DNA from: an uncultured Acidobacteriota bacterium
Lineage (GTDB): Bacteria; Acidobacteriota; Terriglobia; Acidiferrales; UBA7541
Assembly: GCA_963842135.1 (NCBI GenBank)
Contig: CAWJFI010000002.1
Location: 727,821-759,820, forward strand
DNA: 32,000 bases
Reading direction: 5' to 3'
Shown: positions 19,368 to 19,646 of the stretch, piece by piece
How the letters are laid out: each line of letters starts with the position of its first letter
Numbering within the stretch: position 1 is the stretch's first letter
Notes under the pieces: generated by a model
What the model was told of the DNA's origin: nothing
Database searches by the model: none
What the model saw: the letters and a program-made list of their open reading frames with translations, nothing else
Made by a program: the position numbers and the translations under genes

Positions 19368-19646
19368 GTGTCAAGGGGAATCGAGCGCTGGGAATGAACC
19401 TGATTGGGCGCACCCCAAGTATCTCGCTTCCCTGGTTGATTCTCGTGAGGGACCGAGTGGTCTTCGCTGGTGAATTTTTGTGTCCAAGCCAGGCTCGGGC
19501 CCCATTGCGTTCCTCAATTCGGTGTACCCACCAAACATCTCTCCGATCATTTCAGACCATGAGGAGTTATTCGATCTCCCCGCAACTCGGGGAGGCGGGT
19601 GGCCTCATCAGACTCCCGGTCCATACAGCATGACCACTGTGCTACT
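19368..19646 (-). ncRNA. Candidate IS-encoded guide RNA (bridge RNA / seekRNA class); extent and strand are inferred
   Basis: About 290 nt of non-coding sequence between the transposase stop and the IS end. It contains CTGTGCTACT (19637-19646, identical to flank 20778-20787), TCATCAGACT (19605-19614, identical to junction 20763-20772) and ACATCTCT (19535-19542, identical to junction 19347-19354). A 6-bp hairpin CTCCCC/GGGGAG lies at 19576-19594. Confidence 0.35.

What the first reader, a model, noticed from the sequence alone, without database searches (positions are those of the whole stretch)
19368..19646. Non-coding tail of the IS carries colinear segments identical to the target palindrome and both junctions: candidate bridge/seek guide RNA
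Seen in sequence, within the 290 nt between the transposase stop and the IS end. (i) CTGTGCTACT (19637-19646) is identical to the target arm at 20778-20787, and is complementary to the other arm AGTAGCACAG. (ii) TCATCAGACT (19605-19614) is identical to 20763-20772, that is IS end TCAT + core CA + target GACT. (iii) ACATCTCT (19535-19542) is identical to 19347-19354, that is target A + core CA + IS end TCTCT. It is followed by ATCATttCAGAC (19546-19557), a gapped second match to the other junction. The order of the segments matches their order in the target. A 6-bp hairpin (19576-19594) and a GGTC/GACC stem (19618-19635) separate them. Two 10-mers matching a 30-nt flank are not expected by chance: roughly 0.02 expected each, by my rough count of comparisons. 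Established knowledge: IS110/IS1111 recombinases use an element-encoded RNA with loops that base-pair to target and donor DNA around the core dinucleotide (bridge RNA / seekRNA, described in 2024). In the IS1111 group this RNA lies 3' of the recombinase. Inference: this tail encodes such an RNA programmed for the REP-like palindrome. This would be a programmable RNA-guided recombinase in a lineage where, as far as I know, none has been characterised.
Basis: partly seen in the sequence, partly recalled or inferred. Interest (0 to 1): 0.75.

Follow-up and report, generated by a model that had tools for sequence, protein, structure and literature searches.

The report
Guide RNA gene of an acidobacterial IS1111-type element
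The tail of this insertion sequence encodes the guide ("bridge" or "seek") RNA that tells its recombinase which DNA hairpin to insert into; this is a well-supported but expected new member of a system described in 2024, found here in soil Acidobacteriota.

Summary
All three matches are at the stated coordinates, and two 10-mers are expected by chance in about 1.5 of 10,000 trials.

The element is a 1.4-kb IS110-family insertion sequence of the IS1111 type, on the minus strand. It has an intact DEDD/Ser transposase and 14-bp sub-terminal inverted repeats. It sits in a REP-like hairpin between phoU and an ABC ATPase gene.

A roughly 140-200 nt conserved, structured RNA region (about 19666 to 19468, minus strand) starts about 20 nt before the transposase stop codon. 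One internal loop carries AGUAGCA-CA, complementary to the core plus right target flank, and GGAGUC-UG, identical to the left flank plus core.

Across 141 related loci, mostly acidobacterial MAGs and related metagenome contigs, with about 30 different guide pairs, these two segments co-vary with the insertion-site flanks (0 of 2,000 permutations reach the observed score). A second module matches the element's own ends.

- The RNA begins inside the ORF.
- The "TCAT" part of match (ii) belongs to the loop's 3' flank, whose sequence varies between lineages and tracks the element end only in W's own lineage.
- The "gapped match" is a conserved hairpin.
- The donor guide CUCCUCA was missed.

This is a new member of a known kind. 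RNA expression is untested.

The parts
19350..20768 (-). Whole insertion sequence: 1,417 bp plus one copy of the 2-bp core. In IS orientation the left end ATGACA... starts at 20766 and the right end ...TTAGAGA stops at 19350. Core TG lies at 20768-20767 and again at 19349-19348.
   Evidence: Ends were defined by motifs conserved in more than 100 related loci. Removing the element restores perfect hairpins in W, L001 and L002. An uninterrupted hairpin in the L082 flank gives the same answer.
19642..20682 (-). Transposase/recombinase gene, 346 aa. Catalytic candidates are D7, E53, D91, D94 and S255-G256, within GMIPSEHSSG.
   Evidence: - Pfam PF01548 and PF02371.
- NCBIfam NF033542 'IS110 family RNA-guided transposase', 226.9 bits against a cut-off of 140.
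- PDB IS621 and ISCro4 transposases at E about 1e-9.
- Motif positions.
19354..19367 (.). Right sub-terminal inverted repeat, GGCCGACTTTGTTA in IS orientation. Its partner lies at 20747-20760.
   Evidence: 14 of 14 bases complementary (pair I4). The repeat is conserved, with paired changes, across relatives.
20747..20760 (.). Left sub-terminal inverted repeat
19468..19666 (-). Conserved structured RNA region, the predicted bridge/seekRNA. The core supported by the covariance model is 19520-19660. The true 5' and 3' ends are unknown.
   Evidence: - Alignment of 27 guide-distinct relatives.
- Consensus structure and pair counts.
- Model R1 gives one hit in the window, 138 bits.
- W's own fold has z = -2.2.
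19637..19646 (-). Target guide T (equivalent to RTG), AGUAGCA-CA-G. It is complementary to the top strand C-TG-TGCTACT, that is the core plus right target flank. The UAG inside it is the transposase stop codon.
   Evidence: Family-wide covariation with RT +1 to +6, with 0 of 2,000 permutations reaching the observed score.
19617..19636 (-). Inner hairpin of the target-binding loop (UGGUC ... GACCG)
   Evidence: Five pairs with compensatory changes, for example CG:20, GC:5 and UG:2 at one pair.
19609..19616 (-). Target guide B (equivalent to LTG), GGAGUC-UG. It is identical to the top strand (G)AAGTC-TG, so it pairs with the bottom strand of the left flank plus core.
   Evidence: Covariation with LT -1 to -5, with 0 of 2,000 permutations reaching the observed score. 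It differs between W, L001 and L002 in step with their hairpins.
19594..19659 (-). Outer closing stems of the target-binding loop: GCGGG 19655-19659 with CCCGC 19595-19599, and GCC 19649-19651 with GGC 19602-19604.
   Evidence: 99% of cells paired, with AU and GU replacements.
19576..19594 (-). Middle hairpin CUCCCC-loop-GGGGAG between the two modules
   Evidence: The closing pair varies UA:10, CG:9 and UG:5.
19560..19566 (-). Donor guide for the left end (equivalent to RDG), CUCCUCA. Most relatives have UCAUCA, the reverse complement of TG+ATGA.
   Evidence: It occupies the same position relative to a UGGUC hairpin as guide T. RNA A at RD+4 occurs only with left end ATGTCA, in 37 of 37 loci. 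W has one mismatch.
19544..19559 (-). Inner hairpin of the donor module (UGGUC UGAAA UGAUCG).
   Evidence: The stem is conserved in all 27 sequences regardless of target.
19535..19542 (-). Donor guide for the right end (equivalent to LDG), AGAGA-UG. It is identical to the right end plus core. One further base, U at 19535, equals the first base of the right target flank.
   Evidence: GACAUG occurs with right end GACATG in L073 and L074. The following base matches RT+1 in 74% of lineages against 43% expected, with 0 of 5,000 permutations reaching this.
19369..19374 (-). Outward-facing -35 hexamer TTGACA. In a circularised element it would lie 17 nt from GATGAT, which is formed across the right-end/left-end junction.
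   Evidence: TTGAC is conserved at a fixed position in 60 distinct junction reconstructions. Function is inferred by analogy with ISEc11 Pjunc (PMC11187229).
19341..19349 (.). Target, window-left side: the core copy (19348-19349) plus right target flank TGCTACT in IS orientation.
20767..20787 (.). Target, window-right side: the core copy (20767-20768) plus the left target flank. This flank holds the 5' arm, the loop and part of the 3' arm of the hairpin AGTAGCACAGACT-GA-AGTCTGTGCTACT.

Best explanation
**What it is.** The window holds one intact IS110-family insertion sequence of the IS1111 type, on the minus strand. Its 3' region encodes a bridge/seekRNA.

**The RNA.** It has two modules built on the same plan: a top-strand guide ending in CA, then a UGGUC...GAYCG hairpin, then a bottom-strand guide ending in UG.
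- Module 1, the target loop, is closed by the stems GCGGG/CCCGC and GCC/GGC.
  - AGUAGCA-CA pairs with the top strand of core TG plus right flank TGCTACT.
  - GGAGUC-UG pairs with the bottom strand of left flank (G)AAGTC plus core.
  - Together they specify about 13-15 bp that straddle the crossover in the 3' arm of a REP-like hairpin.
- Module 2, the donor loop.
  - CUCCUCA pairs with core plus left IS end (TG-ATGA).
  - AGAGA-UG matches right IS end plus core.

**Proposed cycle.**
1. The DEDD/Ser recombinase binds this RNA.
2. It brings the circularised element (right end, TG, left end) together with the target (left flank, TG, right flank).
3. It exchanges strands at the shared TG, inserting without target duplication.
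4. Circularisation would also assemble a promoter, TTGACA-17 nt-GATGAT, that drives the transposase and the RNA as one transcript.

**Shown here.** The anatomy, the conserved structure, and the co-variation of guides with targets and with ends.

**Inferred.** RNA expression and its ends, binding to the protein, the circle and its promoter, and the order of strand exchange.
For: - **Protein family.** Pfam PF01548 and PF02371. NCBIfam 'IS110 family RNA-guided transposase' at 226.9 bits. IS621 and ISCro4 structures at E about 1e-9. DEDD and SG motifs intact.
- **IS1111 hallmarks.** 14-bp sub-terminal inverted repeats and about 290 nt after the stop codon.
- **Target and core.** Removing the element and one TG restores perfect hairpins at three different sites, in W, L001 and L002. 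An empty hairpin GCACAGCCAtgagTGGCTGTGCTAC lies in the L082 flank.
- **Guide/target covariation** over 141 loci with about 30 distinct guides of each kind. No permutation of 2,000 reached the observed score.
  - Within W's own lineage the B guide changes (GAGUC, GUCAC, GUGUC) in step with the hairpin's upper stem (AAGTC, GTCGC, GTGCC).
  - L075 is a natural hybrid: its T and B guides come from two different lineages, and its target is the matching hybrid.
- **Structure.** 92% of cells are paired against 31-53% in slid controls. 12 pairs show double changes against 4.7 in shuffles. The guides lie in the internal loop.
- **Donor module.** The LDG changes with the right end in L073 and L074. The RDG position opposite RD+4 is A only where the end has T.
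- **Agreement with the literature.** The guide order, top-strand guide 5' of bottom-strand guide, is the order reported for IS1111 seekRNAs (PMC11187229). ISEc11's own 3' region shows the same plan: CAGUAUUUU, then a hairpin, then GUGAAAAU.
Against: - There is no expression or binding data.
- Rfam has no model that hits this region.
- The model built here does not detect the ISEc11 or IS5075 3' regions. RNA homology to the experimentally characterised seekRNAs is therefore not shown, only the same architecture.
- The thermodynamic signal is modest: z = -0.06 for the whole tail and -2.2 for the core.
- Evidence for the donor module rests on little variation. W's left-end guide has an internal mismatch.
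- Part of the donor region could instead form RNA-RNA helices, either UCCUCA with UGAGGA or CUCC with GGAG.
- Some loci (L005, L055, L069) sit in sites that do not match their own guides.
- The B guide often carries A opposite a target G at position -2.
Confidence: 0.9

Rival explanations
1. Only module 1 is a guide, as in the short 82-96 nt seekRNA. On this reading the element's ends are recognised by the protein through the long sub-terminal inverted repeats. The 'donor' matches in module 2 would then be structural RNA that happens to resemble the ends.
For: - The short seekRNA is the predominant species bound to IS1111 transposases (PMC11187229).
- The donor-side segments hardly vary in this family, so covariation evidence is thin.
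- W's CUCCUCA mismatches the left end. It changed together with a downstream UGAGGA, as expected for an RNA helix.
- IS1111 elements have long inverted repeats that a protein could read.
Against: - Module 2 repeats the plan of module 1 exactly: guide-CA, UGGUC hairpin, guide-UG.
- AGAGAUG becomes AGACAUG just where the right end becomes GACATG.
- The RNA base opposite RD+4 is A only with T ends, in 37 of 37 loci.
- The base after the LDG follows the target's first base. A purely structural element would not do this.
- The candidate helix is broken in L033 and L074.
Confidence: 0.15
2. The junction-like strings act as DNA rather than RNA. They could be relics of earlier insertions or nested ends, or internal protein-binding sites resembling the ends.
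For: - AGAGATGT in the tail resembles the true right end.
- Several relatives carry an extra partial right end just outside the element: L002, L023, L036 and L055.
Against: - The segments sit at fixed positions inside a structure supported by compensatory base changes.
- The two target segments change with the flanks while their surroundings stay constant.
- Relics would decay rather than co-vary.
- One segment is complementary to the target and the other identical to it, overlapping at the core. This is the arrangement an RNA needs to read both DNA strands.
Confidence: 0.03
3. The matches arise by chance, or the conservation reflects protein coding: either the 3' end of the transposase ORF or the small ORFs in the tail (19394-19633 plus strand, 19371-19550 minus strand).
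For: - In most relatives the 5' half of the RNA lies inside the transposase ORF.
- ORFs of 59-79 aa exist in the tail.
Against: - Two 10-mers by chance have P about 1.5e-4.
- The variable parts are exactly the guide positions, set within an otherwise conserved context. This is the opposite of coding constraint.
- Single-base indels between W, L001 and L002 fall inside the tail ORFs.
- Paired compensatory changes indicate RNA helices.
Confidence: 0.02

Closest known systems
IS1111-group seekRNAs of ISEc11, ISPa11, ISKpn4 and ISPst6 (Siddiquee et al. 2024, PMC11187229)
   Same: - The transposase has the same domain pair.
- It has sub-terminal inverted repeats and a long 3' non-coding region.
- The RNA starts next to the stop codon.
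- The top-strand match lies 5' of the bottom-strand match, separated by a short hairpin, and the two overlap at the crossover.
- Related elements are naturally re-targeted by changes in the guide.
- ISPa11 also targets a REP hairpin.
- An outward -35 hexamer could form a junction promoter.
   Different: - The protein is only about 25-29% identical to ISEc11 and IS5075.
- The covariance model built here does not hit their 3' regions.
- In this clade the RNA's 5' half, including the programmable guide, lies inside the transposase reading frame.
- Nothing here has been tested experimentally.
IS621 bridge RNA (Durrant et al. 2024, PMC11208160; Hiraizumi et al. 2024, PMC11208158)
   Same: - Two loops, one for the target and one for the donor.
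- Each loop has one guide for the bottom strand of the left half and one for the top strand of the right half, sharing a 2-nt core.
- The recombinase is DEDD plus Ser.
- IS621 also inserts into REP sequences.
   Different: - The IS621 RNA is 5' of the gene, and its guide order within a loop is left then right. Here the RNA is 3' and the order is right then left.
- The core is CT in IS621 and TG here.
- IS621's 'handshake' bases extend the top-strand guides. Here the only cross-matching base found extends the bottom-strand donor guide.
ISPpu10 'structure-gated' bridge recombinase (bioRxiv 10.64898/2026.03.19.712850) and ISPpu9 (PMC12288879)
   Same: Both are IS110-family elements that insert at a fixed point in intergenic REP-like hairpins. 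ISPpu10 is reported to need a target DNA stem-loop as well as RNA complementarity.
   Different: - Whether the hairpin itself is required here is unknown.
- In W's lineage the left flank contains the hairpin's 5' arm and loop. Other lineages of the same clade use targets that were not examined for hairpins.

Membership tests
IS110 family, IS1111 group (insertion sequence) | Transposase with an N-terminal DEDD RuvC-like domain and a C-terminal Tnp domain carrying the G(L)-P----S/T-G motif | tested here: met
   - PF01548 and PF02371.
- NF033542 at 226.9 bits against a cut-off of 140.
- D7, E53, D91, D94 and GMIPSEHSSG at 247-256.
- Alignment to IS621 over the Ser region.
IS110 family, IS1111 group (insertion sequence) | Sub-terminal inverted repeats of 7-17 bp with short terminal extensions | tested here: met
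   14-bp perfect repeats at 19354-19367 and 20747-20760. The extensions are 6 nt (ATGACA) and 4 nt (GAGA), excluding the core.
IS110 family, IS1111 group (insertion sequence) | The longer non-coding region lies downstream of the transposase gene | tested here: met
   292 nt from the stop codon to the right end, against 84 nt (20683-20766) between the left end and the start codon.
IS110 family, IS1111 group (insertion sequence) | Site- and orientation-specific insertion without target duplication | tested here: met
   - Removing the element plus one TG restores perfect hairpins at three sites.
- Seven insertions of W's lineage are all at C|TG|TGCTAC in one orientation.
- An empty site is seen in the L082 flank.
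IS110 family, IS1111 group (insertion sequence) | A circular intermediate with a junction promoter | not testable with these tools
   Only the sequence is consistent with this. TTGAC(A), a 17-nt spacer and GATGAT would be assembled across the joined ends, and this is conserved in 60 distinct reconstructions.
Bridge RNA / seekRNA | A structured RNA with guide segments in an internal loop | tested here: met
   Consensus structure with compensatory changes. 92% of cells are paired against 31-53% in slid controls. The guides occupy alignment columns 28-37 and 62-70, between helices 23-25/75-77 and 38-42/57-61.
Bridge RNA / seekRNA | One segment complementary to the top strand and one to the bottom strand of the target, overlapping at the core | tested here: met
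   AGUAGCA-CA pairs with TG-TGCTACT, and GGAGUC-UG matches (G)AAGTC-TG. The same holds across the family.
Bridge RNA / seekRNA | Guides co-vary with targets among related elements (natural reprogramming) | tested here: met
   About 30 distinct guides of each kind. No permutation of 2,000 reached the observed score. There is also the natural hybrid L075.
Bridge RNA / seekRNA | A second set of guides matching the element's own ends around the same core (donor loop) | tested here: met
   - AGAGA-UG matches the right end plus core. (C)UCCUCA/UCAUCA is the reverse complement of core plus left end.
- There is one co-change with the right end (L073, L074) and an association at RD+4.
- Variation is limited, so this is weaker than the evidence for the target loop.
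Bridge RNA / seekRNA | The RNA is transcribed, and it binds and is required by the recombinase | not testable with these tools
   No expression data are available. No minus-strand promoter-like or terminator-like site was found in the integrated copy.
Bridge RNA / seekRNA | A match to published bridge-RNA covariance models, or detectable RNA homology to characterised seekRNAs | tested here: inconclusive
   - Rfam 15 gives no hit above noise, and the published models were not available.
- A model built from this clade (R1) finds nothing in the ISEc11 or IS5075 loci.
- That model is narrow, with an effective sequence number of 1.65.

The most novel reading that the evidence does not exclude
This acidobacterial clade may use a mechanistic variant of bridge recombination in which the bottom-strand guides, rather than the top-strand guides as in IS621, carry the cross-matching ('handshake') bases.

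- The base after the right-end guide follows the first base of the right target flank.
- The base or bases after the left-target guide match the left IS end: A in all but one parsed locus, and AUGA in W's lineage.
- The RNA would then match the two insertion junctions as well as the target and donor. This could bias the reaction toward product stability, or serve excision from the junctions.
- In addition, the programmable guide lies inside the transposase reading frame, so re-targeting rewrites the protein's C-terminal tail and even its stop codon.
Probability: 0.3. Interest if true: 0.5.

Novelty: new member of a known kind. Interest (0 to 1): 0.3.

Why it matters
- It confirms by comparative evidence alone that the bridge/seekRNA mechanism operates in a divergent clade. 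The clade is about 25-30% identical to the characterised enzymes and is abundant in soil Acidobacteriota.
- It gives the rules for that clade: core TG, 6-7 nt read on the right flank and 4-6 nt on the left.
- The roughly 30 naturally re-targeted guide pairs, plus one natural hybrid, are a ready-made specificity data set for anyone engineering IS1111-type recombinases.
- For genome annotation, the intergenic insertions in these genomes are aimed at REP-like hairpins.
- It does not change the understanding of the system.

Tried and rejected
- **A 4-bp shared sequence (GATG) as core or duplication, which would add ATG to the target.** Rejected. Only the TG reading restores perfect hairpins at three sites, and it matches an empty site.
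- **Match (ii) as a true junction guide (left flank, core, 4 nt of IS end).** Rejected as a family feature. Relatives with the same end have AAUA or AUUA there. It remains possible for W's lineage only.
- **The 'gapped match' at 19546-19557 as a guide.** Rejected. It is the donor-module hairpin.
- **A helix UCAUC/GAUGA (columns 118-122 with 171-175), against a long-range closing helix (9-13 with 154-158), against a local GGUG/CACC hairpin.** All are compatible with the counts, and the choice is not resolved.
- **Rfam scans at gathering and at permissive thresholds.** Nothing relevant was found.
- **Exact-protein look-up for other copies of W's transposase.** The protein is not on record.
- **Search for more copies of the palindrome or the inverted repeat in the window.** None found.
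- **Own covariance model against the ISEc11 and IS5075 loci.** No hit.
- **Whole-tail folding energy.** Uninformative, z = -0.06.
- **A k-turn or C-box reading of CUGAUGA.** Not pursued. The paper consulted gives no basis for it.

Full report
**The observation**

- CTGTGCTACT at 19637-19646 equals 20778-20787, and is complementary to AGTAGCACA at 19341-19349.
- TCATCAGACT at 19605-19614 equals 20763-20772.
- ACATCTCT at 19535-19542 equals 19347-19354.

I resampled the tail 20,000 times and compared it with both junction windows on both strands. At least one 10-mer match arose in 1.5% of trials and two arose in 0.015%.

**The element**

The 346-aa ORF on the minus strand (20682 to 19642) carries Pfam DEDD_Tnp_IS110 and Transposase_20. 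It scores 226.9 bits against NCBIfam NF033542, 'IS110 family RNA-guided transposase', whose cut-off is 140. It aligns to the solved IS621 and ISCro4 transposases at E about 1e-9. It keeps D7, E53, D91, D94 and the GMIPSEHSSG serine motif.

Perfect 14-bp sub-terminal inverted repeats lie at 19354-19367 and 20747-20760. About 290 nt follow the stop codon. These are the hallmarks of the IS1111 group as defined in PMC11187229 and PMC11208160.

The element sits between phoU (18656-19327) and an ABC ATPase gene that starts at 20851.

**Relatives**

A scan of one genome per species returned 80 loci, 79 of them from Acidobacteriota MAGs (L037 is a bin labelled Chthoniobacterales) and 63-92% identical in protein. 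A metagenome scan returned 80 more, 62-95% identical.

The nearest annotated plasmid-borne relatives are only about 25-31% identical. They include ISEc11 and IS5075. IS110-family genes were already known to be common in acidobacterial genomes (PMC3469429).

**Ends, core and target**

All relatives share a left end ...|TG|ATG(N)CATAACGA and a right end ...CGTTAGAGA|TG|....

Both junctions share GATG, so two targets were possible. The TG reading is the right one.
- Removing the element plus one TG restores a perfect hairpin in W: AGTAGCACAGACT-GA-AGTCTGTGCTACT.
- It does the same in L001: GCACAGCGA-agag-TCGCTGTGC.
- It does the same in L002: GCACAGGCA-agag-TGCCTGTGC.
- An uninterrupted copy, GCACAGCCA-tgag-TGGCTGTGC-TAC, lies in the flank of L082.

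The target is therefore a REP-like hairpin family. The crossover falls at TG in the hairpin's 3' arm.

**The RNA**

Read on the minus strand, the region from about 19666 to 19468 is conserved across the clade. The consensus structure has these parts.
- Outer stems GCGGG/CCCGC and GCC/GGC.
- An internal loop.
- An inner hairpin UGGUC/GACCG.
- A middle hairpin CUCCCC/GGGGAG.
- A second hairpin UGGUC/GAUCG.

On 27 guide-distinct sequences, 92% of cells are paired, against 31-53% when partners are slid by 1-3 columns. Twelve pairs show changes on both sides, against 4.7 in shuffles.

A covariance model built from this alignment finds one copy in the window, at 19520-19660 on the minus strand. W is in the training set, so this shows only that the copy is unique. 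W's own fold of that stretch has z = -2.2. The whole tail has z = -0.06.

**Target guides**

Immediately 5' of the inner hairpin every relative has a variable 6-8 nt followed by CA (a UA variant occurs in one subgroup). Immediately 3' of it, every relative has a variable 4-6 nt followed by UG.
- The first segment is the reverse complement of core plus right flank. In W it is AGUAGCA-CA for TG-TGCTACT.
- The second is identical to left flank plus core. In W it is GGAGUC-UG for (G)AAGTC-TG, with one G-T wobble.

Over 141 parsed loci there are about 30 distinct guides of each kind.
- Right-flank positions +1 to +6 are matched at 72-89%, against 24-38% in permutations.
- Left-flank positions -1 to -4 are matched at 67-90%, against 28-44%.
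- No permutation of 2,000 reached the observed totals. An earlier test on 65 loci gave the same result.

Within W's own lineage the right guide is constant and so is TGCTAC(T). The left guide differs, GAGUC, GUCAC and GUGUC, in step with the hairpin's upper stem, AAGTC, GTCGC and GTGCC.

L075 combines the right guide of one lineage with the left guide of another, and it sits in the corresponding hybrid site.

The order of guides, top-strand first, is the order reported for IS1111 seekRNAs. ISEc11's own 3' region shows the same plan.

**Donor module**

The second module repeats the plan.
- (C)UCCUCA, which is UCAUCA in most relatives, ends in CA directly before a UGGUC hairpin. It is the reverse complement of TG+ATGA, the core plus left end.
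- AGAGA-UG directly follows the hairpin. It equals the right end plus core.

Variation here is small but goes the right way.
- The RNA reads AGACAUG exactly where the right end is GACATG, in L073 and L074.
- The base opposite left-end position +4 is A only where the end has T, in 37 of 37 loci.

W's left-end guide has one internal mismatch. Parts of this region could also form RNA-RNA helices. I hold the donor assignment with less confidence than the target assignment.

- Match (i) is the right-flank guide.
- Match (ii) is the left-flank guide plus core. Its 'TCAT' half belongs to the stretch 3' of the loop. That stretch is AAUA or AUUA in most relatives with the same IS end. Only its first base, A, is the same in all but one parsed locus (G in L079).
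- Match (iii) is the right-end donor guide plus core. Its extra base is probably meaningful: that RNA position equals the first base of the right flank in 74% of guide lineages, against 43% expected, with 0 of 5,000 permutations reaching this.
- The 'gapped match' is the second hairpin.
- The left-end donor guide was missed.
- The RNA starts inside the ORF, not after it.

**Expression**

No minus-strand promoter-like or terminator-like site is found in the integrated copy.

An outward TTGACA at 19369-19374 would lie 17 nt from GATGAT if the right and left ends were joined. TTGAC is fixed at that position in 60 distinct reconstructions. This fits the junction promoter known for ISEc11 and co-transcription of transposase and RNA, but it is inference.

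**Comparison and verdict**

Every defining feature of an IS1111-type element and of its guide RNA that can be tested in sequence is met. Expression, binding and homology to the characterised RNAs are untested or inconclusive.

Bridge RNAs were predicted for 93% of catalogued IS1111 elements. The protein family is already named as RNA-guided.

This is a new member of a known kind: a divergent acidobacterial clade with an unusually rich record of natural re-targeting.

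Noticed in passing
window 19642-19660 (minus strand); relatives: The RNA's 5' half lies inside the transposase reading frame. In W the stop codon is the UAG inside the guide AGUAGCACAG. In most relatives the frame runs on through the guide and stops at the UGA of the hairpin arm GUGACCGG. Re-targeting therefore rewrites the protein's last residues and can move its stop codon.
   Followed up: partly
B guide position -2, loci: The left-flank guide often has A where the target has G, two bases before the core. 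This occurs in 39 loci and 5 distinct guide lineages, including L001. Other positions match well. No explanation was found.
   Followed up: partly
L005, L006, L009, L016, L024, L028, L063 and five metagenome loci (L088, L105, L137, L153, L156; L157 also reads TA at the right junction but its left junction was not captured): In these loci, mainly one subgroup of the clade, the left junction reads TG but the right junction reads TA. In most of them the right-flank guide carries UA instead of CA, while the other three guides keep UG or CA. The pattern is consistent rather than mixed, which may bear on which strand's core is inherited.
   Followed up: partly
L005, L055, L069: These copies sit in sites that do not match their own guides. 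L069 is in a site typical of a co-resident relative. Possible causes are guide RNA acting in trans between related elements in one genome, or MAG assembly errors.
   Followed up: no
L002, L023, L036, L055 right flanks: A second, partial copy of the right end (...CGTTAGAGAT) lies 10-30 nt outside the first. In L002 it is next to a run of N. These could be tandem or abortive insertions, or assembly artefacts.
   Followed up: no
L001, L002, L081-L084 flanks; L082 minus strand around position 1893: A REP-like hairpin family, (aaaa)cc-GCACAG-NNN-(a/t)gag-NNN-CTGTGC-TAC(T), recurs in acidobacterial genomes and soil metagenomes. It is the target of W's lineage, and one empty copy was seen. No other copy occurs in the 32-kb window.
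   Followed up: partly
window 19604-19611 and 19552-19555 (minus strand): In W's lineage the sequence after the left-flank guide reads CUGAUGAG (the core UG plus the six bases after it), and the donor hairpin contains CUGA. These resemble box C and box D of C/D RNAs. Other lineages have UGAAUAGG or UGAUUAGG. This is probably coincidental.
   Followed up: no
window 20815-20844 (+): A promoter-like site, GTGAGA-18 nt-CATAAT, lies just upstream of the ABC ATPase gene (start 20851) and just outside the element. The insertion separates that gene from phoU but seems to leave this candidate promoter intact.
   Followed up: no
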